From positions 1-64,000 of IMG/VR virus record IMGVR_UViG_3300041585_000108: 64,000 nt of DNA. One strand, written 5' to 3'. Of the stretch, positions 11,765 to 56,580 are shown piece by piece. Made by a program: the position numbers and the translations under genes. Within the stretch, counting starts at the first letter, position 1; every line of letters begins with the position of its first letter. Under the pieces are notes generated by a model that was not told where the DNA came from, did not search any database, and saw nothing but the letters and a program-made list of their open reading frames with translations. The DNA comes from a virus.

Positions 11765-11932
11765 TTAGTCCTCCTCTCTATTTCTAATTTTATATGTTAG
11801 TGCCCAGAATATTAGCGTGAATACAATTCCGTATCCAACAACATCTTTTGCGCTGCCATCTAAGACAACCCAGGCGATAAACATACCCAGGAGTGTCCAT
11901 GCTTGATCTATCATATCTTTGATGATTTTCAT
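11765..11932 (-). CDS. Small two-TM membrane protein
   Basis: Manual translation [46 protein letters not shown]... Confidence 0.65.
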   Translation of the reverse strand: MKIIKDMIDQAWTLLGMFIAWVVLDGSAKDVVGYGIVFTLIFWALTYKIRNREED

Positions 11933-13296
11933 CACTTTCCTTTCCTCCTTCTCATACCCTTGGATTCTCCTGAAGAGCCTCCTCCACCTGAACCTCCTCT
12001 TGAATTAGAAGAGCCTCCTCCAGTGGATCCTGCTGCACCTGCTGCATTTATAGCAGCCCCTGTAGCAATAACTGTTACAACAACCATCTTGGTTGCTTCT
12101 TTTCTTTCTGCTGGAGACATGTCTGCCCCAATACTTCCTAGGGCTGCTAATGCTGCTCCTGGATTTGAAAATAATTCTGCAGTAAATGCGGCTGGATCTG
12201 ATATGAGTTCAACTTGAGCAGCGACTTCTGCAGTAATTATAACTTCGTTTTCGTTCTCATCCTGTCTAACCTCAACAGGAGTTTCTGGTGGTAAATCTTG
12301 ATACTCAATTCCTGCTTCTTTTATTTCCGCAGAAGTAAGTGCTTCATTTGGTGCTAATGATGCTACAAGAACTCCAGCAACTGCTATTTTTTCTTCATTA
12401 GTAATAGGCTTAGGTTGTCTTGGCTGTGGCCCTAGTTCTGGCTTTGGTTCTGGCTGTGGCCCTAGTTCTGGCTTTGGCTGTGGCTGTGGCTGAGGTTCTG
12501 GTTGTAGCTGTGGCCCTAGTTCTGGCTTTGGTTCTGGCTTTGGTTCTGGCTTTGGTTCTGGCTGTGGCTGTGGCTTTGGCCCTAGTTCTGGCTTTGGTTC
12601 TGGCTGTGGCTGTGGCTTTGGTTCTGGCTTTGGTTCTGGCTGTGGCTGTGGCTGTGGCCCTAGTTCTGGCTTTGGTTCTGGCTGTGGCTGTGGCTGTGGC
12701 CCTAGTTCTGGCTTTGGCTGTGGCTGTGGCTGAGGTTCTGGTTGTGGCTGTGGCCCTAGTTCTGGCTTTGGTTCTGGCTGTGGCTGTGGCTGTGGCCCTA
12801 GTTCTGGCTTTGGTTCTGGCTGTGGCTGTGGCTGAGGTTCTGGTTGTGGTTGTGGCTGAGGTTCTGGTTGTGGTTGTGGTTGAACTACTGGTGGCAATGG
12901 TGTTGGCTCAGGAGTCGGTTCGGGTTGGGGTTGAGGTTGCGGTGAAGGCTCTGGCTCAGTTGAAGGTTCAGGCTGCGGTGTTGGACTCACAGAAGGCCCA
13001 GGACTAGGTGATGGAAATGGCTGCGCTGTTTGTGTTGGCTCTGAGTTTGGGTTTGATTCTGGGGTACTGGTCGGCAATGGTGAGGATTGCTCGTTTGGAG
13101 CGGGACTTGGTGAAGGCTCTGGAGTCGTTGACGGTGTTGAAGGAGCAGGTTCTGAGCTTGGGCTTTGAGAAGAATCGGCTGCGTGAGCTTTATCTATGCC
13201 AAGGAGCAGGGGTGCTGATACAAGTATTAATACTAAAACTATGCGTAATAATTTTTTTATTTTCCTCATCTCCCTCTGCATAATAATGTTTAGCAA
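11932..13296 (-). CDS. Exported Pro/Gln/Glu-repeat protein with C-terminal membrane anchor
   Basis: Signal peptide ending AHA; long [12 protein letters not shown] repeat stalk; C-terminal hydrophobic segment and RRRKGK tail. Confidence 0.8.
12415..12880. repeat. Coding tandem repeat (6-bp-based units encoding [10 protein letters not shown])
   Basis: Read directly from the sequence. Confidence 0.95.
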
Positions 13297-17355: not shown

Positions 17356-17599
17356 TATAATCTATAACTCTTAATCTCATACTTCCATCGTACTGTGAAA
17401 AATTATCTTCATATAGTCTGATTGCTAAAAACTCAGGATATTTTACTATATCCATCTGTAAGTCGTAAGCTGGGCTAGTAAGCTCTCTTACTTTTCTTGC
17501 CATTTCTTTTGTATAAAAAACTGGTTTGTTTGCTTCCCCAGTCCATTCATTAATTCCAAATTTAAAATGATCTTTATTTTTGTCTATAAAGTTAGCCAT
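17276..17599 (-). CDS. Hypothetical protein
   Basis: ORF track. Confidence 0.65.
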   Translation of the reverse strand: MANFIDKNKDHFKFGINEWTGEANKPVFYTKEMARKVRELTSPAYDLQMDIVKYPEFLAIRLYEDNFSQYDGSMRLRVIDYIEMVKKVLESYGIRVELEGKPGGRTR

Positions 17600-17900
17600 G
17601 AAGCCTCTTTATAGACTTAGATATTTCTTTTGTCTTATGAGAATTTTTTGATTTATCTGGTATGCCAGAGTTTAAATATACTCCACCCCAAACACCATAG
17701 TTATCTGATTTTACTCCAGCAGCATAACAAATTGAAATTACTGGGCAAGACATACACGCTTGATCAATGCTCTTAGCAACATTTACATCAGATTCGTATG
17801 AGTCAAAAAATAAATTTGTATCCATTCCTAAGCACAAGGCAAGGTCTTGCCACTCAAAATTATCTTTCTCAAGCCCTAGGCTATTTAAAAATTTTGACAT
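17592..17900 (-). CDS. whiB: WhiB-family Fe-S transcription factor
   Basis: W..ALC...LFF...CMSCPV...C...GVWGG; marks an actinobacterial host. Confidence 0.93.
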   Translation of the reverse strand: MSKFLNSLGLEKDNFEWQDLALCLGMDTNLFFDSYESDVNVAKSIDQACMSCPVISICYAAGVKSDNYGVWGGVYLNSGIPDKSKNSHKTKEISKSIKRLHG

Positions 17901-18111
17901 ATTTTGCTGGAAGCTTCCATAGCCCGTCATTATTGATTGCAAATTCTTCTGCAATCCCCCATTTATTTCTAAACAATCCTTTATTATTTGTAAATCCTAA
18001 TTGATCTTTTTCCCAAATAACTAATGAATAATTATTCCAAAATGAATCAAGGTCTTTGGACTTGGCTTTTTTAATTAACACATCTACGCCAAGCTCAGTT
18101 AGATTAAGCAA
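17881..18111 (-). CDS. Hypothetical protein
   Basis: ORF track. Confidence 0.6.
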   Translation of the reverse strand: MLNLTELGVDVLIKKAKSKDLDSFWNNYSLVIWEKDQLGFTNNKGLFRNKWGIAEEFAINNDGLWKLPAKYVKIFK

Positions 18112-18416: not shown

Positions 18417-18977
18417 CTAGCTGGGCAAACTTTTTGCCGAAGCCCTTTTCTTAGTAGATTTAGCAGGAGATGGAGTTGATCCAAATTTAGGACGACCAAA
18501 TCCAACAATTGAAATCATAACTTTCTTGGGGTTCTTCTTGTAAGCACGAAGTTTCTTGGCAACCTGCCCGCCATTACGTTGGCTTCCCTTGTCATCAGAG
18601 CTTGTATTACCTTCAATGCACCAAACTGTTCCGTCACCATTGTCTTTAACAACAATGCCTACGTGAGAAATTCTATCGACACCATCTGCGGGAAAATCAA
18701 AGTAAGCGATATCTCCTGCATCTGGGTCCGCTAAGTTGCCATCAATCCAAGCTCCAGCTTTCTTAAATGCTGCTGCACCACCAGGTGTGTAAACGGTATT
18801 AGGTACCTTTACTCCAGCTTCGTTAGCACACCAGTTTACGAATGAACCGCACCATGGCTGAAAGTTAGCTTTAGCGTACTTTCCATACTTGGTCTCGTTA
18901 TCTTTTGGACCTTCAATAGTCCCAAGTTCTGCTGTAGCTACTTCAATAAGTTTAGCTACTGTTCCTTTATCTGCCAT
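18417..18977 (-). CDS. Endolysin, CHAP/NlpC-P60-type amidase
   Basis: PWCGSFV, SHVGIV and IEGNTS motifs. Confidence 0.9.
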   Translation of the reverse strand: MADKGTVAKLIEVATAELGTIEGPKDNETKYGKYAKANFQPWCGSFVNWCANEAGVKVPNTVYTPGGAAAFKKAGAWIDGNLADPDAGDIAYFDFPADGVDRISHVGIVVKDNGDGTVWCIEGNTSSDDKGSQRNGGQVAKKLRAYKKNPKKVMISIVGFGRPKFGSTPSPAKSTKKRASAKSLPS

Positions 18978-19171
18978 TACTTGTTCCAATCCTCATCTAC
19001 TGGTTGCTCTTCTGGCATTGCACCATCTGGCTTTGCTGCTAAACGTGCAGCGATAGCATCTAAGTCTGCTGTTGAATAACGATATTCTTTTTTAACCATT
19101 TGTTGCTCCTTGTTTTGTAGTATCAGGTGTAATTTTTATTACATCCTTTGTGCAGGTCTGAGTTGCCTCAT
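18977..19171 (-). pseudogene. Two stub genes directly upstream of the endolysin (40-aa 18977-19099; out-of-frame stub 19092-19171)
   Basis: Leaderless ATG at 19171 stops after 10 codons while another frame reads EATQTCTKDVIKITPDTTKQGATNG*; the next ORF keeps its SD and TAATG coupling but has no TM segment. Confidence 0.55.
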
Positions 19172-30508: not shown

Positions 30509-30709
30509 CTAAACACCTTTAATTTTTAGCTTAAAGGTAAATGTTTTTTCTTCCTCACTATAATCAACCTGTACTTCTTTATCTTCATTTTCTGCATTAA
30601 TAATTTGAGATACGGGAACAGATATTTCTCCCAGTGTCTCTAGGGCTGCAACTAAAATTTTAGCAATATTTAGTTGTGCGTAGACGTCTTCAATTTTTGC
30701 ATCTGTCAT
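30509..30709 (-). CDS. Hypothetical protein
   Basis: ORF track. Confidence 0.65.
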   Translation of the reverse strand: MTDAKIEDVYAQLNIAKILVAALETLGEISVPVSQIINAENEDKEVQVDYSEEEKTFTFKLKIKGV

Positions 30710-33700
30710 TTTATTTCCTTTACATTTAATGTTCCATCATCTAGGGTAGACAATACAACCTTACACTTCATTCCTTCTCTCATCTTGGCCAATGTCATTT
30801 TGTACATAGTGGGGAAAGCAATTGCTCTTGTTAACTCTTTATGCTTATTAGATAATACAATATGACTCATTGTTTTTCCAGCTTTTGTAACGTATGGAGT
30901 AAAATTTACGACTATATATTCATCTTCTTCTAAGTCGTATTCTTTTTTATAAAGATAGTCCACGAACATATCGTTTGAAGATGGATCAATCTCTGATACT
31001 TTTATGTATCTAGCTATTCTATTATCTCCAACCAAAATAAAATACATCTGTCCAATTTCAATTTGTGTTTGCTCATTATGAAATAAACCAATTGTGCCAG
31101 TCTCATCAACAAGCTCTACTCTTGCCCATCCAGACCCTCTTTTAATTGCTTTAACCATTCCAAACATAACAAAGGAGCCTAAATCATCAAAATCTTCAAT
31201 AGGTCTAGCTTGAGCCTTTACTCTTGGCGGAATTCCTTCTAGATTAAATGTTGGTATTCCTAAGTATTCGTAGTAGTTATCTTTCTCATTGCCAATTCGC
31301 TTATTATCCTTAAAAGCAGCCCCACCAATATTATTAAGAGCAGTAATGGCCCTACTATTAATCCCGCTGCCTTTGGCTGAAGCCTTTTGAACAAAATTGG
31401 AATAGCTTTCGTATGGTCTTTTTTCTATTATTTTATTAGCTATATTGTCAGAAATAAATTTAATTTCTGCAAGACCAAATCTAATTGAATCTTTTTGCAA
31501 AGAAAAGTACAGGTTAGACTCATTGATATGAGGAAGAAGAACCTTAAGCCCAAGTCTTTTAGACTCAATTAAATACTCTGTCCTTGCATCTTTATCATTT
31601 TCATTTTTAAGAATAGAAAACATAAACTCAAGCGGGTAGTGCTTCTTAAGCCACGCAGTGTAATAAGATAACATTGAGTAGGCTACCGCATGTGAACGGT
31701 TAAAAGAATAGCCAGCATGTGCTTCAAAGTCTTGCCAAAGCTTTTCTGCTTTTTTTCTTGTAACATGGCTTGATGCACCATTAATAAACTTATCTTTAAA
31801 CTCATCAAACTCTTTAACATCTTTTTTCTTACCAATAATCTTACGAACTTTATCTGCTTCGGACCAAGACATACCGCCAAGATAAACACAAGCTTGCATA
31901 ACCTGTTCTTGATAAATAATTACACCATATGTATTTTCAATAAAAGGCTTCATGATTGCATGCATGTAATCAACTGCCTCATTACCATTTTTTCTTGCAA
32001 TATACGAAGCCCCAACAGTGTTCATGGCTCCTGGGCGTACCAAAGCATTTGATGCAATAAGATCTTCAAATTTGTCTGTACCCATTTTTATTAAAAGGTT
32101 TGTGTATGGTGTTGCTTCTGCTTGAAACACCCCCTTGGTGTATCCTTCGCTAAGCATCTTATATACTTCTGGATCTTCTAAAGATAGGGCAGAAAGATTT
32201 ATATCTTTTCCAGTTCTTTTTTTAATAGACTTTAATGTATCAGAAATTACTGATAAAGTTTTAAGTCCAAGGGCATCCAGCTTAATAAGACCGATGTCCG
32301 CAACCGTATCCATGTCATAAGCAACAACTGGTATTCTTCCAGAAACTTTATCTTGGGAGTCTTCTCTTGATTCTACTGGCGCAAATTTTCTAAGAGCATC
32401 TTTAGCAACAACTACTCCAGCAGCATGAACTCCAACAGATCTAATTCTTCCTCTTAGTCTATCGGCTAGCCAAACAACTTCTGGGTATTTTGCTCTAAAC
32501 TCTTTTGTATTTGGTGATGAAATAAAATCTTCAAAAGTGTCAATTGATTTCATTGCACGATTTACTTCCTGTAAAGGAACCATAAAAATACGTGCAGCAT
32601 CTCTAATTACACCCTTATCTTTAAAATAAGTGTAGGTTGAAATAGAAGCAACATGCTTAAACTTTTTCTTTAAATAATCTTTGACTTCTTTTCTTCTGCG
32701 ATCTTCAAAGTCTGTATCGATATCTGGAAAGTCATTGCGCTCTGGGTTAATAAATCTAAAAAACAGTAGATCATATTTAATTGGATCTACGTCTGTTATT
32801 CCTAGTGTGTAACATACCAATGAGCCTGCTGCCGATCCTCGTCCTGGACCAACTCTAATGTCATTTGTTTTTGCCCAGTTAATCATATCAGCAATAACTA
32901 AAAAATAAGATGCAAAGTTTTTAGATGCAATCACACCAAGCTCTTCTTGTACTCTATCAATATAAACTTGATTATCTCCAAAGCCTAGGGAATTTAATCC
33001 GTCATAAGCCATATCCCTTAATTTTTCATCTGCATCTGTTTTAGGAACAGGAAGAAGATCTAAATTTTGATTAAAATCGTAGTCTCCAATTTTATCTGAT
33101 ATCTCTATAGTGTTTTCATAGATGTCTGTTCTTGTTATTCCAGCCTTATTAAAATCAGACTCTATCTCAGAACGACTTTGAATAAATAAATTCATATCTT
33201 GAAAAGAAATTCTACGATCTGGATAAAGGTAATTAAACCTTTCCATCATATCTTTTATGTTACGAGACATATCAAAATCAGAGTCTTTGTCTATTTTGGG
33301 TGAAGTAGAAAGAATAAGTAATGCTTCTTCAAGAACTCTATCTTCTTCTTTAGCAAAATGTGCGTCACCTGTTGCAACAGATTTAATCCCTAGCTCATCC
33401 GCTAAATCTAATAAAGCATTATTTATTTCTAGCGGATTGTGAGATTGTACCTCAACATAAAAATCTTCTTGAAAAGTTTTCTTAAAGTCTTTGAGCATAA
33501 GTCGTGCTTCAGACATATCTCCTTTAGCAATAGCCTTGCTAATAAGTCCATTAAGACATCCAGACAATACAATAATGCCTTCTGCATATTCCCTCAAAAT
33601 TTCTTTATCTATACGAGGCTTATGATAAAAACCTTCGTTCCACGCAATTTCTTGCAGAGTATTAATGTTTTCTAAACCTTTTTTGTTTTTAGCCAACAAT

Positions 33701-33975
33701 ATAATGTGGTTATAAGCTTGAATAGATTTATCTGTTTTGGAAGATCTGTCAAACCTATCTGTGGGAGATATGTAAGCCTCTACCCCAAGAATAGGTTTGA
33801 TTCCTAAATTTTTAGCGGCTATCTGCATTTCTCTATGAGAAGACAAAGTCCCATGATCAGTTATTGCAATTGCTGTTTGTCCAGCATCTAAAGCAGCTTG
33901 ACATAATTCGGCAGGAGAATTAAGACCATCCATTAAAGAATAGTAACTATGCACATGTAAGTGTGTGAATGACAT
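30706..33975 (-). CDS. dnaE: DNA polymerase III alpha subunit
   Basis: HLHVHSYYSLMDG PHP domain, GRGSAAGS, PDIDTD and YSFNRSHAVAY motifs. Confidence 0.97.
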   Translation of the reverse strand: MSFTHLHVHSYYSLMDGLNSPAELCQAALDAGQTAIAITDHGTLSSHREMQIAAKNLGIKPILGVEAYISPTDRFDRSSKTDKSIQAYNHIILLAKNKKGLENINTLQEIAWNEGFYHKPRIDKEILREYAEGIIVLSGCLNGLISKAIAKGDMSEARLMLKDFKKTFQEDFYVEVQSHNPLEINNALLDLADELGIKSVATGDAHFAKEEDRVLEEALLILSTSPKIDKDSDFDMSRNIKDMMERFNYLYPDRRISFQDMNLFIQSRSEIESDFNKAGITRTDIYENTIEISDKIGDYDFNQNLDLLPVPKTDADEKLRDMAYDGLNSLGFGDNQVYIDRVQEELGVIASKNFASYFLVIADMINWAKTNDIRVGPGRGSAAGSLVCYTLGITDVDPIKYDLLFFRFINPERNDFPDIDTDFEDRRRKEVKDYLKKKFKHVASISTYTYFKDKGVIRDAARIFMVPLQEVNRAMKSIDTFEDFISSPNTKEFRAKYPEVVWLADRLRGRIRSVGVHAAGVVVAKDALRKFAPVESREDSQDKVSGRIPVVAYDMDTVADIGLIKLDALGLKTLSVISDTLKSIKKRTGKDINLSALSLEDPEVYKMLSEGYTKGVFQAEATPYTNLLIKMGTDKFEDLIASNALVRPGAMNTVGASYIARKNGNEAVDYMHAIMKPFIENTYGVIIYQEQVMQACVYLGGMSWSEADKVRKIIGKKKDVKEFDEFKDKFINGASSHVTRKKAEKLWQDFEAHAGYSFNRSHAVAYSMLSYYTAWLKKHYPLEFMFSILKNENDKDARTEYLIESKRLGLKVLLPHINESNLYFSLQKDSIRFGLAEIKFISDNIANKIIEKRPYESYSNFVQKASAKGSGINSRAITALNNIGGAAFKDNKRIGNEKDNYYEYLGIPTFNLEGIPPRVKAQARPIEDFDDLGSFVMFGMVKAIKRGSGWARVELVDETGTIGLFHNEQTQIEIGQMYFILVGDNRIARYIKVSEIDPSSNDMFVDYLYKKEYDLEEDEYIVVNFTPYVTKAGKTMSHIVLSNKHKELTRAIAFPTMYKMTLAKMREGMKCKVVLSTLDDGTLNVKEIK

Positions 33976-47210: not shown

Positions 47211-47659
47211 TAAATTTCTTCCAATGAAATTGATACGTCCCAAAAAGCTTGTGCTGTATCCGCTATTTTTTCTTTAACATTTCTTTTAATTAAATTAAAT
47301 GAGCATGAGGTAAATGAAGCTACAAAATCTTCAGTCCTAGTAGAGTTATATGCAATTCTGGCATTAAATGACCCTTGGCCTTTAGCTCCTAAATAAAACG
47401 ACTTTATGTCTTCTGCCCCCCAGCCGCCGTCTACGGTCATTGTATAGTATGAAGGAAGCATGCTCCATGAGGTAGATAAAGTCTTCTTGTCGGCTATAAA
47501 CAGCTTTCTAAGGCTCCCATTGGCCATTCTAGAAGTCTGCTCAAACCTTTGGGTATCTATTGATATTGGGGATCTATTATGCTCAGTTAATTTTTGCCAG
47601 GTTCCAACGGCATCTTGTAAAAACAATGCGGAACCTACTGGTAAAACTAAAGCTGCCAT
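47210..47659 (-). CDS. Minor tail protein (distal-tail-like)
   Basis: Immediately after tape measure; RMANGSLR..K..WS.L. Confidence 0.65.
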   Translation of the reverse strand: MAALVLPVGSALFLQDAVGTWQKLTEHNRSPISIDTQRFEQTSRMANGSLRKLFIADKKTLSTSWSMLPSYYTMTVDGGWGAEDIKSFYLGAKGQGSFNARIAYNSTRTEDFVASFTSCSFNLIKRNVKEKIADTAQAFWDVSISLEEI

Positions 47660-50600
47660 TATATATTTTTCCCCTGTCCAACCATTTTAACATTAACCTT
47701 AGCTTTTTGTCCAATAACAACCTGTGCTTTTTGAATAATCATATTCGATAGTGCTTCAACATCCATCCCATCAGATGCATAAATATTTTGGTTTACAACA
47801 TATGACGCCCCTGATGTTGATTGGCCACTTACATTAAATGATGATTGAGGAATCTTATATCGTGGAGAGGCGGCTGCCAACTTATTCATTATGTCATTTG
47901 GCATTATATTTGCAGGAGATCCAAGGTGAACCATCTCTGGACCCTTTTCTCCAACCAAGAACATTCCTTTTCCGCCCATGACTCCTGTTGCTGCTTTGCC
48001 CATATAAACAACTTGCCCACCACCAGCGCCACCAACTTTATACTTTTGGCCATTTATTTCAAATGTGTCTCCCAAATTTAATTTTTCTCTTTTAACGATT
48101 GCATTTCTAGCTTCAGCATTAAGAACATCAACTTTTTTACCATCAAATGTTTTTGACTCCATGCTTTTAGAATAATCTCCAGTAACCTTTACATTCTTTT
48201 TTGCTTGTGGATCAATCCCTTTTACAGCGTTAACAACATCTGCCAAAGTCTTGCCACCCTTGATGCTATCAGCTAATGCCTGATTAACTCCAGAAGAAGC
48301 TCCAGATTTTGCAAGTATTCCTAGTGCGTTTTGTTCAGGAGATACTGCAACCTTTCTAGTCATAAGCTCTGAGCCCACATATCCTGTTTGAGTTGCATAT
48401 TTTGAAGACTTAACTCCAGTTGTTGTTTCTGTTGCTCCTACAAGCCCCGCAGCTTCTCTGCCGCCCTCAACTGTTGCAACATACTGCTCAATTGTTTTCC
48501 CTGCAGCAGCTGCATTACCATACAAAGCAGTCATAGCATCATTTACTTTATTTATTGCAGCTTCTTGTTTAGTGTATTTGTCTCTAATCTTATCTAAGCT
48601 TTCACCAGCTAGGGCTGCTGAATTTGCAAGCTTTTCTTGTTTATTTGCCATTGCTTCCAAAGCAGCTTGCAATGGTTTATTTGCAGCCTCAGTTGCTTTA
48701 TCAATTGCTCGTACTTGAGATTCTGTTTGTTGTTGTGAAGTCAGTGACTCTAAATCAATTCTTAAAGATTGTGCTTTTGCAGTGTCTCCAGTTGAAAAAG
48801 CGTTTTCCATTTCAAGTCTTGTTTTTTCAATTTGTCTTCCAAGATCTGCATCTGATTGTGCAGCAGTTAAGGCTTTCTTTCGTGCATCCGCTAACTTATT
48901 ATTAGCGTCAACCTGCTTATTAAGAGATTTAATTCTATCTTTGTCAGATATTTGTTCTGCTACAGACTGTCCCTTTAGCGCCCTGGTATACGACTTAATT
49001 TTTTCTTCTAGTAGCCCTAAGCTTGTATACTGTTCTTTTAATATGCCAATTTTATTTGTAGATTCAACGACTGATCTAATTTTACTAAATGCTTGAGAAA
49101 GCACAGCAGTTTGTGCTGCATTTAATTCAGATAAGTCTCCTTTATATCCCTGTGCTTGAAGTCTAATCTTTTGATACACACTAACAACAGTATCCAGTCC
49201 GTTAATCATTTTTTTAACTTCTGGATTTGTTTTAGCCATTTCATCAACTGTACCTTGAGTAATTATAGCTCCAGCTTCTTTAGACTTATTGATTTTATCA
49301 ATCATTATTTTTTCAGCTTCTGCATAAGTCAATGATTTTGTTTTCCCAGTTAAATCTTTGGCTACAAGTCTTTCTCTTTTTTCAATCAAGTCGTTGATTC
49401 CAGTTTCTGTAGCCATAAGAGCAGTATTTAATGAAGCCGCTTTTTCTTTATTGCCTTGGGTTTTAGTATCTGTTCCAAAGCTTTCTACAGATGAAACAGC
49501 AGAAGTTTGAGCATCTATTATTGATCTAAATTTTGAGTTACCCATTGTTGCTGTAATTGATTGATCTTTTTTGTTAGATAATTGAAGCATAGTAAATACT
49601 TTTTTAGTTGCTTCATCAGCAGACATTCCAGCAGCGATTAGCTGCTCTTTAATTCTACGAACAGCATCTGGAACTTTAGTAGAAGGCTGTCTATCTAATG
49701 CTTTAATTTGTTCAGCAAAAGTTTCTTTAACTTCAACTTTTAATTTTTTGTATTCTGCAATAGTCATTTGAAAAGGAGTTCCGCCATCCTTCATACTTTC
49801 ATAAACAAGTTTATTTGCAGCGGCCATGTCTTTTGAATCTTGAATGGTCTCTTTAATTTTTGAACCAAAATCTGTAAATCTAAGATTAGCTTTTTTAGCA
49901 GCTTCAGCAGTTAATCCAAAGGTTGATAGGTTTAGTTCTTGTCCTTCTTTATAATGCTTAAATGCTTTATACCCTCCATACAATGCTGCAGCAACGGCAG
50001 CCAATGGAAGTATCACTCCTGCTGCAGCGGCAGCGGTAGCACCAAATCCAGCTGTAACTGCTCCAGAACCAGCACTAAGCAGAGCTCTGCTAGCGATCAT
50101 TTTGCTAGCTGATTGAATTAATTGAGGGCCCGCCATCATTCCAACCATGCTTCCCATCATTGCGCCACTTGAGCCTCCAATCTTTCCTCCAATAGCCGTT
50201 CCTGCTGCCATTCCACCGATGGTGCCCAACATCATTCCGCCAGCTCCAGAACCACGGGAAATTGGATTTCCTTGATCGTCTAGAGGCCTAGGCTTATTTA
50301 AAACAGCTCTTCCGTATTGAATCGGATTTAGCATAGCTCTTGTTGTATACCCAAGGTTTGCTTTGAAGCCAAGTCTAGCTGCATTTGGAACTCTTGAGGC
50401 CTCAACTTTGTTACCACTTGCGTCAATGTACCCTGGATTGAAAGCAACTCCTGGTGGCCTAGATGCCATTGTTTGTGGACTGAAATATGATTTTCTAACT
50501 TGCTCCATCTTTGATAATGTTCTACGTGAAGAGTCAGCTAGCTTAGATCCTAATAAACTTATGCCTGCAGACAAATCAGATCCATACATTCTAGCACCTA

Positions 50601-53600
50601 CAATTAATTGATTTGCAGAATACTTTAAAGTAGTAGCACTAAATTTAATGTTTTTTCCTAATGTAATTGCATCTTTTTTAACACTAGTGCCTAATGCATA
50701 TAATGACATCTCTATCTGTTTTGCGGCTGATTTAAGTGCCGCTTGTGTTTTATTTAAAGATTCATGCCCTAATGTAAGCCCTGGCATGTAAGGCAAAGAT
50801 CCTTGAACCCCATAAGAATTTGTTCTAACTCCACGATTTCCTACAAATGTTGTTCTTGACCCAGATAGCGGACCATCTTTATATTCTGGTTGTGCAACTG
50901 GGGCTGGAACATATGCTGCCGCTTTAGCACGTTTTTCTGCCTCCTGCATTGCTCTTTGTGCTGGATTTCCACTGCGACCATAAGCATACTTTCCAGCTTT
51001 AATTATTCCGCCAAGCTCATAGTTTGGAGCTATAGTACCACTTTGCTGAGGACTAAATAGTTCTGGACCTTTTTCTCCAACTATATATTTTTGTCCTGCT
51101 AAGACTGGACCACCCATTTCTCTTTTACCAGCAATGCCAAATATTTCTTTCTGTAGTAATGCTGTTAATGGAGTATCTTTTTTAGAATCCCAATTTAAAT
51201 ATTTTTTTCTAAGAATGTCTTTATCTATTGGGGAAAGCTGTCTAATAAAATTACGATCTGAGATTAAATTTGATGCAGCAGATCTAACTACAGAATCCAT
51301 TACGTGTGGCTCTAATGCATTTTTAAGAGACCCGCTTGCATCCTTTAAATATCCATATGGCTTTTCTTTAGCTAATGCTGCCGCAAATTTATCATAGAAT
51401 AAATTTTGTGTATTTTTAGTTAGGCCAGATGTACCAAATAGTTTGTTTCCCATTCCAATTGTAAGAGAATTTACGCCCCATGGGGCTGACTCATACATGC
51501 TTGGCTTAGGCGCACCTGTTGGTCCAAAGCCTGCACCAATTCTGCGCATAGCCATAGATTTCATGACATTGCCAATTACGCCTCCAGCATTAAATTCATT
51601 AGCGTTTGATTTAAATGCATTATCGCTTAACGATCTTGCGTGTCCTCTTTGTCTTATTCTTAAATCAGTTTCTGTTTTTAATTTAAGTAGAGCAGCTGGA
51701 GTTAATTGCTTGGATGCAGAAGTTTTTACAGCAGAATGAATTCCGTGGAATTCCTCCCAATTTACTTTTCTTCCATCTTCAAGTCTTTTTGTCATGGCTT
51801 TATAAAAAATAGCTTCTTCTTTGTTTAAATCAAATGATTTAATTGTTGCTTTCAGTTTTGGAAGAACTCGATCAATTTCGGAAATCATTTTTTCGTGATA
51901 TTGTTTTGCCGTCATTCCTTTTGGTATTTCTAAAGTTGATTCGGCAAAGAATCTTTTTGCACCGCCCTTAACTCCAAGAAGGTTTATCCTTGCTTGATCA
52001 GACATTGATGGCATATTTGGTTCATATGGTCTAAGTCCAGATGCCATTTTAAATACACCAGCATTTCCCATATCGTTTAATGTTCCGCCAGATAAATTAT
52101 CTCTACTTAAATCTTTATCGCCTCTTAAATTGGCTGCAACTAATTGCTTAAAGTAGTCTTTTTCTGTAAATTTTCCAGACTGTTTTACAAATGCTTTATC
52201 GTATGGGGACTCCAATACCAATAGCTTTCTTTTGCCAGTCGGGTCTGTTGGGTCAATCATAGTCCTTATTGTTTGAACTGGTGTTTTAAGTCCATGGGCT
52301 TCTCTTGCAATAATAGTAGCTCTTTGTTCTGCTAGTGCCGCTCTTTCATCCATAACTGGTTTAACAAATACTACTGATCCATCTGGCTTTTCATAAACTC
52401 CGCCAATGCCTGAAACAGGAAAACTTCTTCCAGATGTAGGAGATCTTAAAGTTCCAAAATCTGTTGGCTTCATTTTGGCAAATCTTCCAGACATAAGAGA
52501 AGCATTGATGTCTTCCATGTTTTTTCTTGCTTTTCTTTGAGTTTCAACTGCTTTGATCCCTCTAGGCATTCCAAGGAACATTCTTCCATAGTTATATTTA
52601 CCAGGTTTTACTGCTCCTCCAATTTCTCCGCCAGAGTTCATGGCAAGTCTTCCGCGGACAAAGAAATTAGCGCGTGGAGTAGGTGCGACTGGCTTTGGTT
52701 TTATTGATCGGGTTTTAGAAGCTTCAAAGACCCTCATGTTTCCACCTAGAGCTTTTACCAAGGATTCTGGTATTGGGCCTTTTCCATTCCATTTGCCAGT
52801 AGAAATAAATTCTTCTATTTTTGGTAAATTTTTCATAAAATCATTTACATTTTTAAAGCCTAAATATTGTGAAACTCGTTTTGCTCTTAAGATTGCTTCA
52901 TCTTTTGTTAATGGCACATAATCATCAATTCCAAGTCTAGCTGTAAGGGATGCGGAAAAATTATTAAATGGGTCATGCATAGCTGATCCAGCATAACCCC
53001 GTGTTGCTATTGGCCCAATTGATCTTTCTATATGAGCTCTATCTGCATTTGGATAAAGAGTAGAACGTGGAAATTTTCTTTTTAATATATTTACTATAAT
53101 AAGTTTTGCTTCTCTGTTTTTTACATCAGATTGAGATATAGCTCTACGTCTTGCTGCCCATTCTTTATCATTCATCCCAGCGGGTCTTGTTTCAACAAGA
53201 TCTGGAAAATTTTCTTTCATTAATTTTTGTTGAGAGTCTGTATAAGAAAGCCCTACACCATCTCTTAAAAATGATTCATGACTAGCTAAAGAAGATTCTA
53301 CAAGAAGTGTGGCTTTTTTAACTGCAATGTCTGGCGTCATTCTAGGATCTTTTGAATTTCTTAATATTGCAGTTGCATCATTTAATATTAAGTTTGGCTT
53401 AACGTCCGCCTGATAAGATGAAGATGTTAAATAATCTAGATATTCTTTTGTGCGTGTTAGTGCAGACATGCCTACATATTGTGAGCTTGAGTTGCTAAAT
53501 ATTTCTGGTGGTTGTAGGCCGTATCTATTTTTATTAGACATAACCATTCCGCCAACAGCTTCTCCAGTACTAATTAAAGAGATTGGACGCTTTGTTTTAT

Positions 53601-56580
53601 TTGCTACATCATAAGATTGTTTATTTTGCTGATATATCTCTGGGCTAACAACTGTTTCTCCTGGAGTTAATATTGCATCAATCATTCCGCCTGAATTATA
53701 TCCTTGTCTTGCGGTTGATACTAATTTTGGATTATTTTTAGAAGCTTCTTGATTTAATACAAATCCACCAAGGGGGACTTTTGCCATAGTATTATCATAG
53801 TTAATGCTTGTATCTCCTGGTACCACCGCTCCATCTTTTCCTGGATGGTAAACGTATCCTCCGCTATTTAATCCTCTTGGCTTTGTTGTTTGAATGCTGT
53901 ATCCAGCGCCTGAAGTTCTAACCCCTAAACCTCTTGCTATTTGATCAACAAGTTTTGAAGTTTCTGTTTTGTGAAATAATTCCTTCATGTTTGATTTTCC
54001 AAGAGCGCTTACTACTGGCTGATTTGTAAGGGGAACCATTCCTAAATTTAATGTTCTTACTTGAGCCGTAGCAATACCCTGAGCTGTTTGAGCCATCATC
54101 GCTTCTACTCTTGCATTTAATGCAAATATTTTAGTTCTTGCTGCTTCAACAGTTAGCTTGCCAGCTTGAAGTTGATCTACTATCATTTCTGTTTCTTTGG
54201 CTGCTAAAGAAGTTATCTTTGTCATTTGTGGAAGAAGAGCTTGATAAGAATCAGTAATTGAAGCAGTCATTGTTCCAGTTGCAGCAATTTCTGTTTTAAG
54301 AAGAGCAATCTCTGCTTTTGACTGCATTGCAATAGCTGCAGTCATTGAGTGCCATTTGGCAGCTTCTGCTGAAACTACTCCAGTTGAAATTCCATTTATA
54401 GATGTTACTCCAGGAATCTTAGGCATATCTGTATTCATGTACACTTGTGGCGCATTTGAAATTCTTTGATTTACAGGCTTTGGTCCAGGAACGGTTGAGA
54501 ATATTGTTTCGTTAGCTCTTTGCTCTGCGGTTTTTGATCCAGTTGGAATCATATGGGACATGTCTCTTGAATATGGCTTGCCAGCCAACGGATTATTTTT
54601 ATCTACAATTCTTCCGCCAACACCCATTACTGGATTTCCTGCAACGGTGGACATACTATTTGAAGTTGCAATTGTAGATGACATTGCTGATTGTTTTAGC
54701 TTTTCAAATGAGGCTGCTAAGGTCATTACCGCATCAGAAAATGTTGCCGCAGCTTTTGTGTCGCTGTAGAATGATTCTTCTACTGTTTTAGCTGCTGCTG
54801 AAGCAGCCACTAACTCTGGAGTTAATAATTTAAATCCTGTTCCGCCCTTTCCAATATTCTTTAAAGCAAATATACCTTTGATTATGTAACCAAAAAAGTT
54901 TGCAAGCACACCCGTAAGCATGATTATAGGACCAGCGATTGCTACTAGCCCACCAATAAATCCAAGCACTGCTTTGATTGGGCCTGGAAGATTTCCAATA
55001 AACTTAAGGATTCCATCTATTGCATTTAATACAAATGCTCCAACCTTTAAGAACTGCTCTCCAACGGTTGCAAGCTCTGCTTTGACTGACTCTAGTGCTC
55101 TTCTATATTTACCAGATGCCGATTCAGTAAGGGTCTTTAATTCTCGTTCAGAAATACTCGCAAGGTCTTGTGTGCTTGCTTTCATTAAGTCTAATACTTG
55201 TAGCGTCTGGCTTCCTTGCTTGCCTAAGTTTTCAAACAAAGCATTAATTCTTGCAAACTGAAACTTACCAAAAAGTTGTTCAATTGCTCTTGCTCTTTGT
55301 AGTGGCTCTAAAGAATCCAATGAGTCTTTGAGCGCCATGATTGTGCCAGTTAAGTTTCCAGCATTTTTATCTACAATTCCTGATAGATCAATTCCAAGTC
55401 CGTTAAACATCTCTTTTGCCACTTTAGTTGGATTGATTATAGATGCAAGTGCTGACTTTAATGCGTTAGCTCCTTCAGACGCATTAATTCCGCCTTCTCT
55501 CATTGCGGTGAGGTATAAAGCTAAATCTTGAATATCTCCACCTAATGCTTTAACAACTGGTCCCGCTTTTGGAATTGCTGTTACTAAATCTTCAAGTGTG
55601 GTAGATGTCTGGTTTTCTACAGCGTTAAGAAAGTCAATTGATTCTGCAAGCTGTGATGTACTTTGGCCAAAAGCAGTTTGAATTGCTAAAGTAGCTTTCA
55701 TTGCATCTTGTCTATCAACTTCACCAAGTACGGCAAGTCTAGTTGTCTGTCTAGTAGAATCTAGTAACTCGGCTCCTTGCTTACCAGTTGCAGCAATATC
55801 TGCAGCCAATGATATTGTTTCTGTAAAGTTTGCGCCTAGGCTTGAAGCAAGTTCTCTAGATAAAGCAGATACATCTCTTCTAACCTGAAGAAGATCTTCT
55901 GTTGAGGTTGCTGTTAATCCACCATAAACTTTTGTAAGTCTTACAAGCGCTTCATCTGCTTGCTTGAATGCTTTTGCTGCAGCCATACCAAATGCTGCTA
56001 GGGGTACTGTAAGTCCTACTGTTAACTGACGACCCGCCCACTGAGTATTTTTACCCCAGTTAATTAATTGTCCTGCGCCATTATTCATCACTTTGTTCAT
56101 GATTGAAAGTTCTTGTCTTAATAAAGCTGTTTTATTTTTAGTAGCATCTAGTCCAGATTGAACCATTACGTTATACTGCATTAGACCTTGAGCATTTTTA
56201 CCAAGTGGTTGAACAAATGCGTTCTCAAGCATTACCTGCTGTTTAGCTAAATCTTTAACTAATGAGCTAGTCTTTTGTGTGTGGCCTTGCCATGTTTTAA
56301 AGTATTGGCCAAGCTTCATTTTTCCGCTATCTAAGTTCTGGCCAAACTTAGATACATCTGATGTTAGTGTTACAAAGTGTCTAGAAAACTGGCCAGTGGA
56401 GCGCATGGTATCGTCAAACTGACGATTCATGACTCCTACCTGGCTAGTTAAGTTTTTGTTTAAACCTATAGTAGTAGTCTGCAGTTTTAGCATTTGTGCC
56501 GTCACTGCTTGTAACTGCGCTGTTAGGCTAGAAAAATTAGCCGTCGCGGTTATGTTGGTGACTATATTTTGATCTGCCAA
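47659..56580 (-). CDS. Tape measure protein (2973 aa) with inserted cargo domains
   Basis: TP901-type N-terminal core, Ala/Gly-rich hydrophobic segments, position after chaperones, GEKGPE motifs. Confidence 0.92.
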   Translation of the reverse strand: MADQNIVTNITATANFSSLTAQLQAVTAQMLKLQTTTIGLNKNLTSQVGVMNRQFDDTMRSTGQFSRHFVTLTSDVSKFGQNLDSGKMKLGQYFKTWQGHTQKTSSLVKDLAKQQVMLENAFVQPLGKNAQGLMQYNVMVQSGLDATKNKTALLRQELSIMNKVMNNGAGQLINWGKNTQWAGRQLTVGLTVPLAAFGMAAAKAFKQADEALVRLTKVYGGLTATSTEDLLQVRRDVSALSRELASSLGANFTETISLAADIAATGKQGAELLDSTRQTTRLAVLGEVDRQDAMKATLAIQTAFGQSTSQLAESIDFLNAVENQTSTTLEDLVTAIPKAGPVVKALGGDIQDLALYLTAMREGGINASEGANALKSALASIINPTKVAKEMFNGLGIDLSGIVDKNAGNLTGTIMALKDSLDSLEPLQRARAIEQLFGKFQFARINALFENLGKQGSQTLQVLDLMKASTQDLASISERELKTLTESASGKYRRALESVKAELATVGEQFLKVGAFVLNAIDGILKFIGNLPGPIKAVLGFIGGLVAIAGPIIMLTGVLANFFGYIIKGIFALKNIGKGGTGFKLLTPELVAASAAAKTVEESFYSDTKAAATFSDAVMTLAASFEKLKQSAMSSTIATSNSMSTVAGNPVMGVGGRIVDKNNPLAGKPYSRDMSHMIPTGSKTAEQRANETIFSTVPGPKPVNQRISNAPQVYMNTDMPKIPGVTSINGISTGVVSAEAAKWHSMTAAIAMQSKAEIALLKTEIAATGTMTASITDSYQALLPQMTKITSLAAKETEMIVDQLQAGKLTVEAARTKIFALNARVEAMMAQTAQGIATAQVRTLNLGMVPLTNQPVVSALGKSNMKELFHKTETSKLVDQIARGLGVRTSGAGYSIQTTKPRGLNSGGYVYHPGKDGAVVPGDTSINYDNTMAKVPLGGFVLNQEASKNNPKLVSTARQGYNSGGMIDAILTPGETVVSPEIYQQNKQSYDVANKTKRPISLISTGEAVGGMVMSNKNRYGLQPPEIFSNSSSQYVGMSALTRTKEYLDYLTSSSYQADVKPNLILNDATAILRNSKDPRMTPDIAVKKATLLVESSLASHESFLRDGVGLSYTDSQQKLMKENFPDLVETRPAGMNDKEWAARRRAISQSDVKNREAKLIIVNILKRKFPRSTLYPNADRAHIERSIGPIATRGYAGSAMHDPFNNFSASLTARLGIDDYVPLTKDEAILRAKRVSQYLGFKNVNDFMKNLPKIEEFISTGKWNGKGPIPESLVKALGGNMRVFEASKTRSIKPKPVAPTPRANFFVRGRLAMNSGGEIGGAVKPGKYNYGRMFLGMPRGIKAVETQRKARKNMEDINASLMSGRFAKMKPTDFGTLRSPTSGRSFPVSGIGGVYEKPDGSVVFVKPVMDERAALAEQRATIIAREAHGLKTPVQTIRTMIDPTDPTGKRKLLVLESPYDKAFVKQSGKFTEKDYFKQLVAANLRGDKDLSRDNLSGGTLNDMGNAGVFKMASGLRPYEPNMPSMSDQARINLLGVKGGAKRFFAESTLEIPKGMTAKQYHEKMISEIDRVLPKLKATIKSFDLNKEEAIFYKAMTKRLEDGRKVNWEEFHGIHSAVKTSASKQLTPAALLKLKTETDLRIRQRGHARSLSDNAFKSNANEFNAGGVIGNVMKSMAMRRIGAGFGPTGAPKPSMYESAPWGVNSLTIGMGNKLFGTSGLTKNTQNLFYDKFAAALAKEKPYGYLKDASGSLKNALEPHVMDSVVRSAASNLISDRNFIRQLSPIDKDILRKKYLNWDSKKDTPLTALLQKEIFGIAGKREMGGPVLAGQKYIVGEKGPELFSPQQSGTIAPNYELGGIIKAGKYAYGRSGNPAQRAMQEAEKRAKAAAYVPAPVAQPEYKDGPLSGSRTTFVGNRGVRTNSYGVQGSLPYMPGLTLGHESLNKTQAALKSAAKQIEMSLYALGTSVKKDAITLGKNIKFSATTLKYSANQLIVGARMYGSDLSAGISLLGSKLADSSRRTLSKMEQVRKSYFSPQTMASRPPGVAFNPGYIDASGNKVEASRVPNAARLGFKANLGYTTRAMLNPIQYGRAVLNKPRPLDDQGNPISRGSGAGGMMLGTIGGMAAGTAIGGKIGGSSGAMMGSMVGMMAGPQLIQSASKMIASRALLSAGSGAVTAGFGATAAAAAGVILPLAAVAAALYGGYKAFKHYKEGQELNLSTFGLTAEAAKKANLRFTDFGSKIKETIQDSKDMAAANKLVYESMKDGGTPFQMTIAEYKKLKVEVKETFAEQIKALDRQPSTKVPDAVRRIKEQLIAAGMSADEATKKVFTMLQLSNKKDQSITATMGNSKFRSIIDAQTSAVSSVESFGTDTKTQGNKEKAASLNTALMATETGINDLIEKRERLVAKDLTGKTKSLTYAEAEKIMIDKINKSKEAGAIITQGTVDEMAKTNPEVKKMINGLDTVVSVYQKIRLQAQGYKGDLSELNAAQTAVLSQAFSKIRSVVESTNKIGILKEQYTSLGLLEEKIKSYTRALKGQSVAEQISDKDRIKSLNKQVDANNKLADARKKALTAAQSDADLGRQIEKTRLEMENAFSTGDTAKAQSLRIDLESLTSQQQTESQVRAIDKATEAANKPLQAALEAMANKQEKLANSAALAGESLDKIRDKYTKQEAAINKVNDAMTALYGNAAAAGKTIEQYVATVEGGREAAGLVGATETTTGVKSSKYATQTGYVGSELMTRKVAVSPEQNALGILAKSGASSGVNQALADSIKGGKTLADVVNAVKGIDPQAKKNVKVTGDYSKSMESKTFDGKKVDVLNAEARNAIVKREKLNLGDTFEINGQKYKVGGAGGGQVVYMGKAATGVMGGKGMFLVGEKGPEMVHLGSPANIMPNDIMNKLAAASPRYKIPQSSFNVSGQSTSGASYVVNQNIYASDGMDVEALSNMIIQKAQVVIGQKAKVNVKMVGQGKNI

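What the first reader, a model, noticed from the sequence alone, without database searches (positions are those of the whole stretch)
51700..52590. HipA/PI3K-like kinase fold inside the tape measure
Seen: IGGVYEKPDGSVVFVKP (Gly loop, beta3 Lys), ALAEQRA (alphaC Glu), GLKTP, LRGDKDLSRDNL (catalytic-loop-like DxxxN, Ser in place of the usual His) and NDMG (DFG-like). Established: this motif order defines atypical HipA/PI3-4K-type kinases. Inference: an injected kinase or pseudokinase acting at entry on host proteins, defence factors or actinobacterial phosphatidylinositol lipids.
Basis: partly seen in the sequence, partly recalled or inferred. Interest (0 to 1): 0.7.

Follow-up and report, generated by a model that had tools for sequence, protein, structure and literature searches.

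The report
Kinase-fold cassette inside phage tape measure
The 2973-residue tail "ruler" protein of this uncultured phage, probably of actinobacteria, carries an optional module of about 330 residues that is predicted to fold as an atypical kinase with every catalytic residue conserved, so the virion may deliver a ready-made kinase with its DNA; activity, delivery and target are all untested.

Summary
All five motifs sit at aa 1392-1505 of one 2973-aa minus-strand ORF (window 47659-56580), which is a tape measure protein (TMP; PF10145, phrog_10030).

AlphaFold2 folds aa 1340-1640 with confidence (pLDDT 89, pTM 0.86). All 50 best PDB matches are protein-kinase-like folds: CotH Z 11.6, CtkA 10.3, PI4K-II 9.6-9.8, MavQ 9.5, HipA and Fam20C about 9. 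No Pfam or PDB sequence match exists, so this is a new sequence family.

In 132 representatives from clusters at 50% identity, the beta3 Lys, alphaC Glu, Asn and DFG-like Asp are in all 132, and the catalytic Asp in 131.

The module is a discrete cassette, aa about 1335-1666, bounded by xxGG linkers. It is precisely absent from 42 of the 120 closest TMP relatives, so it is accessory cargo. It usually lies between two hydrophobic clusters. WhiB and capsid similarity point to an actinobacterial host.

Best reading: an active kinase expelled with the TMP that acts on the host at entry. This is inferred; the substrate is unknown.

This scan has already reported the same cassette in at least six other genomes, with the same conclusion.

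The parts
47659..56580 (-). Tape measure protein gene, 2973 aa, TTG start
   Evidence: Single ORF. PF10145 E 8.5e-31 at aa 242-438. TMP PHROGs, best phrog_10030 E 4.8e-119. The N-terminal 600 aa are about 34% identical to TMPs of Streptomyces phages.
51583..52578 (-). Kinase cassette as an indel unit, TMP aa about 1335-1666
   Evidence: Relative P0285 aligns to aa 1-1334 and then directly to aa 1667-2863. At its junction the GKYNYG linker is joined straight to VMGNVLK.
51718..52563 (-). Folded kinase-like domain, TMP aa 1340-1621 (N-terminal helix, N-lobe, hinge, catalytic loop, helical C-lobe)
   Evidence: AF2 model m8ceae4276f8b has pLDDT 89.1 and pTM 0.86. PDB matches span model residues 12-282.
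52393..52431 (-). Gly-rich nucleotide-loop region, G1384-Y1396 (GRSFPVSGIGGVY)
   Evidence: G1384 and G1394 are 245/245, S1386 244/245 and Y1396 242/245. The region lies just before and in the strand at model residues 55-58.
52360..52362 (-). Predicted beta3 Lys, K1407 (VFVKP)
   Evidence: 245/245 and 132/132 representatives. In the strand at model residues 64-70.
52327..52329 (-). Predicted alphaC Glu, E1418 (ALAEQRA)
   Evidence: 237/245 (the rest Gln) and 132/132 representatives. In the helix at model residues 73-88.
52096..52125 (-). Catalytic loop R1486-N1495 (RGDKDLSRDN): D1490 predicted catalytic Asp, N1495 predicted metal-binding Asn
   Evidence: R1486 239/245, D1488 239/245, D1490 244/245, L1491 243/245, N1495 245/245. 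The loop follows the helix at model residues 134-147.
52066..52074 (-). DFG-like D1503-M-G1505
   Evidence: D1503 245/245 and G1505 242/245.
52564..52689 (-). Disordered xxGG linker before the cassette (aa 1298-1339, including NSGGEIGG...GKYNYG)
   Evidence: pLDDT under 50 in model m816899c38225, residues 314-355. The motif is conserved and recurs at other cassette borders.
54862..54990 (-). Hydrophobic cluster 1 of the TMP (aa 531-573)
   Evidence: Kyte-Doolittle scan. 101 of 111 long representatives have such a cluster upstream of the kinase, median 171 aa away.
49969..50064 (-). Hydrophobic cluster 2 of the TMP (aa 2173-2204), preceded by a Gly/Met-rich tract at aa about 2113-2150
   Evidence: 96 of 111 representatives have a cluster downstream of the kinase, median 552 aa away.

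Best explanation
TMP aa about 1335-1666 is a self-contained cassette. It encodes a bilobal protein-kinase-like domain of a new sequence family, structurally nearest to the atypical CotH / CtkA / PI4K-II / HipA / LepB / Fam20 branch. It has an intact active site: K1407, E1418, D1490, N1495 and D1503.

Proposed mechanism:
1. The TMP fills the tail-tube lumen, so the cassette probably travels in a non-native, extended state (inferred).
2. At infection the TMP is expelled ahead of the DNA, and its two hydrophobic clusters enter the host membrane (established for TMPs in general).
3. The cassette lies between these clusters. It refolds on the ATP-containing side of the membrane (inferred).
4. It phosphorylates a host target, either a protein Ser/Thr or a membrane lipid or other hydroxyl, before any phage gene is expressed. 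This would serve takeover or counter-defence (inferred).

Close relatives do without the cassette, so it is accessory cargo and not part of the tail-length or DNA-channel function.

My odds for the sub-claims: kinase-like fold 0.95; catalytically active phosphotransferase 0.75; acts in the newly infected cell after ejection 0.45.
For: Fold:
- The AF2 model has pLDDT 89.1 and pTM 0.86.
- An alignment against about 48,000 PDB representatives, run without Foldseek, gives CotH 5jda Z 11.6 (215 aa, 3.9 A), PI4KIIa 9.6, MavQ 9.5, CtkA 9.3, Fam20C 9.0 and HipA 9.0. All 50 rows are kinase-like folds.
- The second look gives CtkA 10.3, PI4KIIb 9.8, LepB 9.2 and HipA 9.2.
- Foldseek lists only kinases among its top hits, with weak E-values.
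- As an internal control, the neighbouring cassette folds well but matches nothing: best Z 4.9.

Active site:
- In 132 representatives from clusters at 50% identity, K, E, N and the DFG-like D are in 132/132 and the catalytic D in 131/132.
- In all 245 sequences these residues are 97-100% conserved.
- They lie on the expected secondary-structure elements.

Constraint: in the same relatives the kinase is 75-79% identical, against 33-52% for the upstream cassette.

Cargo nature:
- 42 of the 120 TMPs that are 72-99% identical in the N-terminal core lack the domain. Some of these sit on contigs of 107-118 kb.
- One relative shows a precise excision at the linkers.

Placement: the domain lies between two hydrophobic clusters in most representatives.

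Context:
- The domain occurs only inside TMP-sized proteins: 879 hits and 166 clusters. Short hits are contig fragments.
- Structural look-alikes among viral proteins are large virion-associated fusion proteins of actinophages and other tailed phages.
- Kinases are known cargo of injected polyvalent phage proteins (PMC5512222).
- TMP-like proteins with exchangeable functional domains act as ejected effectors in actinobacterial contractile systems (PMC13277306).
Against: - There is no biochemical evidence for ATP binding or phosphotransfer.
- There is no sequence-level link to any kinase family.
- Residue equivalences rest on motif order and predicted secondary structure. I could not obtain a per-residue superposition.
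- Z values of 9-11.6 are only moderately above the 7-8 that unmatched models typically reach.
- It is not known that the middle of a siphovirus TMP reaches the cytoplasm. The enzymatic TMP domains known so far (peptidoglycan hydrolases) act outside it.
- By my own estimate, three copies of a folded 32-kDa domain should not fit a tube lumen of about 4 nm, so an unfolding and refolding cycle must be assumed.
- The Asn-to-Asp spacing of 8 residues is shorter than in most kinases.
- The His of the HipA/PI3K DxHxxN motif is usually absent.
- The TMP is made late in the cytoplasm of the producing cell, where the kinase could act instead.
Confidence: 0.5

Rival explanations
1. The kinase acts in the producing cell. 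The TMP is synthesised late in an ATP-rich cytoplasm. Before or during tail assembly the folded cassette phosphorylates the TMP itself, tail or chaperone proteins, or host proteins. CotH does something similar for spore-coat assembly. Its presence in the virion would then be incidental.
For: The best structural neighbour is CotH, a kinase of structural assembly proteins. ATP is certainly available there. No refolding step is needed. Invariant Ser/Thr residues in the activation-segment-like stretch (A1513-S1514-G1515, S1525) could be autophosphorylation sites.
Against: Forty-two close relatives build TMPs of similar design without the cassette, so assembly does not need it. Embedding an enzyme in the one protein that is expelled into the host is more readily explained by delivery. 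A free late gene would serve a producer-cell role equally well, yet no stand-alone form was found.
Confidence: 0.2
2. The delivered enzyme is a lipid or small-molecule kinase and not a protein kinase. One candidate substrate is phosphatidylinositol of the actinobacterial membrane at the entry site. Another is a host-made anti-phage small molecule, such as an aminoglycoside.
For: PI4K-II alpha and beta (Z 9.6-9.8), MavQ (9.5), LepB (9.2) and Vps34 (8.5) are tied within error with the protein kinases. The catalytic loop DLSRDN has the same D-x3-D-N pattern as the PI4K-II loop as I recall it (from memory, not checked here). The cassette usually lies about 170 aa after a membrane-inserting cluster. 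The host is probably an actinobacterium; that actinobacterial membranes contain PI is my own background knowledge. The nearest named clusters in the ESM Atlas are LepB_N, HipA_2 and PI3_PI4_kinase at 0.91-0.92.
Against: The top structural hits, CotH and CtkA, are protein kinases. Antibiotic kinases score lower (MPH 6.4, APH(2'') 5.9). No PI-kinase activation-loop signature or Pfam PF00454 match exists in this domain; the one weak PF00454 hit lies in a different cassette. Fold similarity cannot assign a substrate.
Confidence: 0.15
3. The domain is a nucleotide-binding pseudokinase or conformational module. It keeps the fold as a scaffold, switch or plug, for example sensing ATP to signal arrival in the cytoplasm, or helping membrane insertion. 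It does not transfer phosphate to a substrate. Alternatively it uses the fold for other chemistry, such as AMPylation.
For: Many atypical kinase folds are pseudoenzymes or use other chemistry (general knowledge). No substrate is known. The position equivalent to the HipA/PI3K His is not conserved.
Against: The whole catalytic set is kept in 131-132 of 132 divergent representatives. This includes the catalytic Asp and both metal ligands, which pseudokinases usually lose. The cassette is dispensable for TMP function in relatives.
Confidence: 0.1

Closest known systems
CotH, atypical Ser/Thr kinase of the Bacillus spore coat (PDB 5jda; Pfam PF08757)
   Same: Best structural match: Z 11.6, 215 aligned residues, rmsd 3.9 A. 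Both are bilobal kinase-like folds outside the canonical kinase families, and both are linked to a large structural assembly.
   Different: 6% identity and no PF08757 match. CotH is a free protein acting in the mother cell. This domain is a cassette inside a 2973-aa virion protein.
HipA/HipT toxin kinases and PI3/PI4 kinases (PI4K-II, Vps34, Legionella MavQ and LepB), plus H. pylori CtkA
   Same: Z 8.5-10.3 over about 180-215 residues. The motif logic is the same: Lys, Glu, G-D-x-D-L-x-x-x-N, then D-x-G. A few family members read DLHxGN, matching DxHxxN.
   Different: No Pfam HipA_C or PI3_PI4_kinase hit in this domain. hhalign against E. coli HipA gives probability 0.5%. No HipA N-terminal domain, antitoxin or helical PIK domain is present. 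The His is usually replaced.
Tape measure proteins with embedded enzymatic motifs (mycobacteriophage TM4 peptidoglycan-hydrolase motif, PMC1796659; the cell-wall perforation described for phage T5, bioRxiv 10.1101/2022.09.20.507954)
   Same: In each case a catalytic module is carried inside the protein that is expelled first at infection. As recalled for TM4, the module is dispensable for virion assembly. Both papers are known here only from titles listed; I did not read either.
   Different: Those modules act on the cell wall and need no ATP. A kinase needs cytoplasmic ATP, so it implies a different destination. I found no paper describing a kinase in a TMP.
Kinase domains of injected 'polyvalent proteins' of phages and conjugative elements (Iyer et al. 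2017, PMC5512222), and T7 gp0.7
   Same: The concept is the same: a phage kinase available at the very start of infection to modify host proteins. BFVD look-alikes of this model are large portal/MuF/ART-type fusion proteins of actinophages.
   Different: The polyvalent-protein kinases are defined by loss of the whole C-terminal subdomain, whereas this model keeps a helical C-lobe at residues 187-277. The carrier is the tail TMP, not a head-packaged protein. T7 gp0.7 is expressed after entry, not delivered.
TMP-related effectors of actinobacterial contractile injection systems (Sle1/Tme; PMC13277306)
   Same: A TMP-like carrier with exchangeable functional domains, ejected from a tube lumen, in actinobacteria.
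   Different: Those are cellular CIS cargo, not phage TMPs. The paper reports no kinase domain (0 occurrences of 'kinase').

Membership tests
Protein-kinase-like (PKL) fold superfamily | Bilobal fold: a beta-rich N-lobe with an alphaC helix, a hinge, and a helical C-lobe | tested here: met
   The AF2 model has pLDDT 89.1. All 50 best rows of an exhaustive PDB alignment are PKL folds, with Z up to 11.6 over 215 residues. A second look gives the same result. This rests on a predicted, not solved, structure.
Protein-kinase-like (PKL) fold superfamily | Catalytic set: beta3 Lys, alphaC Glu, catalytic Asp, Asn five residues later, DFG-type Asp | tested here: met
   K1407, E1418, N1495 and D1503 are in 132/132 representatives and D1490 in 131/132. 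They lie on the expected elements of the model. I could not obtain a per-residue superposition on a solved kinase.
Protein-kinase-like (PKL) fold superfamily | ATP/Mg binding and phosphotransfer activity | not testable with these tools
   Needs biochemistry or a co-folding method that reports ligand contacts.
HipA family (Pfam HipA_C PF07804, HipA_N) | Match to the family profile, with the N-terminal HipA domain | tested here: not met
   No Pfam hit at E up to 10 for the domain, or at E up to 1 for the 35 family members. PF07804 does not ring in the phage record. hhalign against E. coli HipA gives probability 0.5%.
HipA family / PI3-PI4 kinases | Catalytic-loop motif D-x-H-x-x-N | tested here: inconclusive
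   D and N are invariant with the right spacing. The His position is S/Q/G/A/K in most members and His in only 4 of 245.
PI3_PI4_kinase (Pfam PF00454) | Match to the family profile | tested here: not met
   No hit in this domain. The single weak hit among relatives (E 0.008, P0251 aa 265-296) lies in a different, second cassette.
CotH (Pfam PF08757) | Match to the family profile | tested here: not met
   No Pfam hit. The similarity is structural only, at 6% identity.
Polyvalent-protein kinase clade (Iyer et al. 2017) | [quoted passage not shown] | tested here: not met
   The model keeps a confident helical C-lobe at residues 187-277. The definition is taken from PMC5512222.
Phage tail tape measure protein (TP901 / PF10145 type) | Family profile, great length, hydrophobic segments, position after the tail chaperone genes | tested here: met
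   PF10145 E 8.5e-31. Eleven TMP PHROGs match. Two hydrophobic clusters are present. The gene order is capsid, adaptor, Ig-domain protein matching phrog_2175 (probably the tail tube), two small ORFs, TMP, minor tail proteins.

The most novel reading that the evidence does not exclude
The middle of a siphovirus tape measure protein reaches the host cytoplasmic face and works there as an enzyme within seconds of adsorption. Specifically, it acts as a lipid kinase that phosphorylates phosphatidylinositol (or another membrane hydroxyl) of the actinobacterial membrane around the entry channel. This would remodel the membrane or mark the site for DNA entry or for defence evasion. It would be the first phage-delivered phosphoinositide-type kinase, and direct evidence that TMPs carry cytoplasmic effectors.
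Probability: 0.1. Interest if true: 0.85.

Novelty: new variant of a known kind. Interest (0 to 1): 0.6.

Why it matters
Tape measure proteins are treated as rulers and channel formers. The only enzymatic modules known in them cut peptidoglycan outside the cell. A kinase needs ATP. A strictly conserved active site inside a TMP therefore implies one of two things: part of the TMP enters the cytoplasm and acts before any phage gene is expressed, or it has an unrecognised role in the producing cell.

The family is large (879 clusters at 90% identity, all in uncultured phages) and the cassette is optional. Natural with/without pairs therefore exist for testing what it buys the phage.

It also gives a concrete handle on an open question, namely where the TMP ends up during infection of Gram-positive hosts. 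And it adds a new sequence family to the kinase-like superfamily. This scan has now met the same cassette in several genomes, so the value lies in the family and not in this particular window.

Tried and rejected
- **Sequence searches of the domain found nothing.** This covers Pfam at E up to 10, PDB sequences with phmmer and with a profile, and hhalign of the family profile against E. coli HipA.
- **The weak PF00454 hit was misleading.** A hit among alignment members looked like support, but it lies in a different cassette of P0251. I do not count it as evidence.
- **No cultured phage carries the domain** by tblastn at E 1e-5.
- **No copy turned up in one genome per 185,579 prokaryote species**. 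That scan is pattern-based and finds close relatives only, so it is not evidence of absence.
- **No stand-alone form was found.** All hits of 141-546 aa come from short contigs or look truncated. The exhaustive single-sequence search found only long proteins and fragments.
- **The search for related loci with alignment A1 failed**, because fragments broke every conserved stretch.
- **The upstream cassette gave no clue.** I folded it hoping for a functional hint; it folds well but matches no known structure.
- **Pseudokinase reading rejected as the main explanation**, because the catalytic residues are invariant.
- **An essential structural role rejected**, because close relatives lack the cassette.
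- **No complex prediction was run**, since no partner is proposed.
Full report
**What is there.** The finding lies inside one uninterrupted minus-strand ORF, window 47659-56580, 2973 aa.
- The ORF is a tape measure protein (TMP). PF10145 matches at aa 242-438 with E 8.5e-31. Eleven TMP PHROGs match its first 860 residues, the best being phrog_10030 at E 4.8e-119.
- It sits in a standard siphovirus order: protease, capsid, adaptor, Ig-domain protein (probably the tail tube), two small ORFs, TMP, minor tail proteins.

**Fold.** The segment aa 1340-1640 has no Pfam or PDB sequence match.
- With an alignment of 35 relatives, AlphaFold2 gives a confident model: pLDDT 89.1, pTM 0.86.
- The order of elements is an N-terminal helix, three strands, a long helix, two strands, a hinge, a helix, a loop with short strands, then a helical lobe.
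- I aligned the model against about 48,000 PDB representatives without a Foldseek prefilter. All 50 best rows were protein-kinase-like folds.
- The leaders were the atypical branch: CotH 5jda Z 11.6 (215 residues, 3.9 A), PI4KIIa 9.6, MavQ 9.5, CtkA 9.3, Fam20C 9.0, HipA 9.0.
- A second look at Foldseek's candidates gave CtkA 10.3, PI4KIIb 9.8, LepB 9.2 and HipA 9.2.
- Foldseek's own list also contains only kinases among its top hits, with weak E-values.
- These Z values are moderate. The uniformity of the list is what carries the argument.
- As a control, I folded the neighbouring cassette of the same protein the same way. It is well folded (core pLDDT about 85-95) but matches nothing: best Z 4.9 over 71 residues and Foldseek E 0.18.

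**Active site.** The motifs fall where a kinase needs them.
- K1407 is in the strand at model residues 64-70.
- E1418 is in the helix at 73-88.
- The loop RGDKDLSRDN comes directly after the helix at 134-147.
- D1503-M-G1505 follows the next short strands.
- Across 245 domain sequences, K1407, N1495 and D1503 are invariant. D1490 is 244/245, D1488 239/245 and E1418 237/245, the rest being Gln.
- Restricted to 132 representatives from clusters at 50% identity, K, E, N and the DFG-like D are 132/132 and the catalytic D 131/132.
- The position where HipA and PI3K have His is variable (S/Q/G/A/K). It is His in only four sequences, which then read DLHxGN.
- Such conservation argues for a working enzyme and against a pseudokinase. 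Activity itself cannot be tested here.

**Distribution and modularity.**
- The domain occurs in 879 clusters at 90% identity of TMP-sized proteins. It occurs in 166 clusters at 50% identity in an exhaustive search. Nearly all are inside proteins of about 1,200-4,500 aa.
- The short hits come from short contigs and are fragments.
- No cultured phage has it. No copy was found in the reference prokaryote genomes (close relatives only).
- Of the 120 TMPs closest in the N-terminal core (72-99% identity over aa 1-620), 42 have no kinase domain. Several of these are on contigs of 107-118 kb.
- Relative P0285 aligns to aa 1-1334 and then without a gap to aa 1667-2863. At its junction the GKYNYG linker is fused directly to the sequence that follows NAGG in this window.
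- The cassette is therefore aa about 1335-1666 (window 51583-52578), bounded by the repeated xxGG linkers. AlphaFold models these linkers as disordered.
- Other relatives replace both this cassette and its upstream neighbour with unrelated sequence.
- In the same relatives the kinase is 75-79% identical, while the upstream cassette is 33-52% identical.
- The kinase normally lies about 170 aa after a first hydrophobic cluster and about 550 aa before a second. In this window extra cassettes push it further from the first.

**Host.**
- The window is about 35% G+C and has seven tRNA genes.
- Its capsid protein is 58% identical to those of roughly 130-kb Streptomyces siphoviruses. The TMP core is 34% identical to theirs.
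- A WhiB gene (PF02467, E 4.8e-11, above the cut-off) lies at 17592-17954.
- WhiB is also present in three of five related contigs, including a complete 110,437-bp genome with terminal repeats.
- An actinobacterial host is therefore likely. The species is unknown.

**Mechanism.**
- Shown computationally: a kinase-like fold with an intact, strongly constrained catalytic set, in an optional cassette of a virion protein.
- Established for TMPs in general: they fill the tail lumen, leave first at infection and insert into the membrane.
- Inferred: the cassette travels unfolded, refolds on the ATP-containing side between the two membrane-inserting clusters, and phosphorylates a host target before phage gene expression.
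- A kinase needs ATP, so it must act in a cytoplasm, either of the new host or of the producer. Its dispensability and its placement in the expelled protein favour the new host.
- I put the sub-claims at about 0.95 (fold), 0.75 (active) and 0.45 (acts after ejection).
- The substrate is open. Protein kinases (CotH, CtkA, HipA, Fam20) and lipid kinases (PI4K-II, MavQ, LepB, Vps34) are tied as neighbours.

**Comparison with the known.**
- Enzymatic modules in TMPs are known only as peptidoglycan hydrolases (titles; those papers were not read).
- Kinases are known cargo of head-packaged polyvalent proteins, but that clade lacks the C-lobe (PMC5512222). This model keeps it.
- TMP-like carriers with swappable domains are ejected effectors in actinobacterial contractile systems (PMC13277306).
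- Structural look-alikes among viral proteins are large portal/MuF/ART-type fusions of actinophages and haloviruses.
- I found no paper describing a kinase in a TMP. That library is incomplete.
- The domain fails profile membership for HipA, PI3/PI4K and CotH. It works like them by fold and motifs, but it is a new sequence family.

**Relation to earlier work in this scan.** The same cassette was reported, and followed up with the same conclusion, in at least six other genomes. Those notes prompted my test of optionality, which I ran independently. They are not independent evidence.

**Verdict.** This is a real and well-supported kinase-fold cassette in a TMP: a new variant of a known theme, virion-delivered enzymes. 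It is interesting for what it implies about the fate of the TMP. Activity, delivery and target remain unproven.

Noticed in passing
window 52690-53508 (-), TMP aa about 1025-1297: The cassette just upstream of the kinase folds confidently (core pLDDT about 85-95, mostly helical with a small sheet). It carries conserved motifs DRAHIER and GYFGEAxHDxFN. It has no Pfam match and no structural match in the PDB (best Z 4.9). About 53 of 240 relatives share it. Its function is unknown; it may be a second cargo enzyme.
   Followed up: partly
relatives P0251 (aa about 180-330), P0141 (about 3640-3800), P0162 (about 730-900), P0265 (about 2170-2330): Some TMPs of this family carry a second, different kinase-like cassette. 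Its motifs are YY[IV]K, GN[MFI]D[TA]HxxN and N[LIM]DLGNS (P0265 is a looser variant), which is the classical HipA/PI3K type. It gives a weak PF00454 hit (E 0.008). This window's TMP has no such motif.
   Followed up: partly
window TMP aa 906, 963, 1009, 1316, 1665, 1822, 1856: Repeated linker motifs of the type N-[SA]-G-G-x-[IV], often followed by GKYxYG, mark the cassette borders. They are modelled as disordered. The kinase indel breakpoints fall exactly in them, which suggests cassette exchange by recombination between linkers.
   Followed up: partly
window 17592-17954 (-): A WhiB-family transcription factor gene (PF02467, E 4.8e-11), a hallmark of actinobacteriophages. It is also found in related contigs.
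   Followed up: yes
window 30706-33975 (-), 18417-18989 (-), and seven tRNA genes between 6528 and 21143: The phage encodes its own DnaE-type Pol III alpha subunit (PHP, NTPase, finger and HhH domains), a CHAP-domain protein (possibly the endolysin) and seven tRNAs. This resembles the large Streptomyces siphoviruses whose capsid protein it shares at 58% identity.
   Followed up: no
window 11932-13296 (-): A 454-aa ORF lies in a local G+C peak (0.44 against about 0.33 around it). It has a weak, sub-threshold match to acidic repeat proteins (Trypan_PARP, 34.8 bits against a cut-off of 100). It is probably a low-complexity acidic or Pro-rich repeat protein.
   Followed up: no
L001 (IMGVR_UViG_3300036671_000167) compared with the window: The IMG/VR record that holds an identical kinase segment is 62,836 bp, whereas the window's record is 75,318 bp. 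Their TMPs differ slightly outside the kinase (98-99% identity in the flanks and the N-terminal core). These are two close variants or assemblies of one phage.
   Followed up: no
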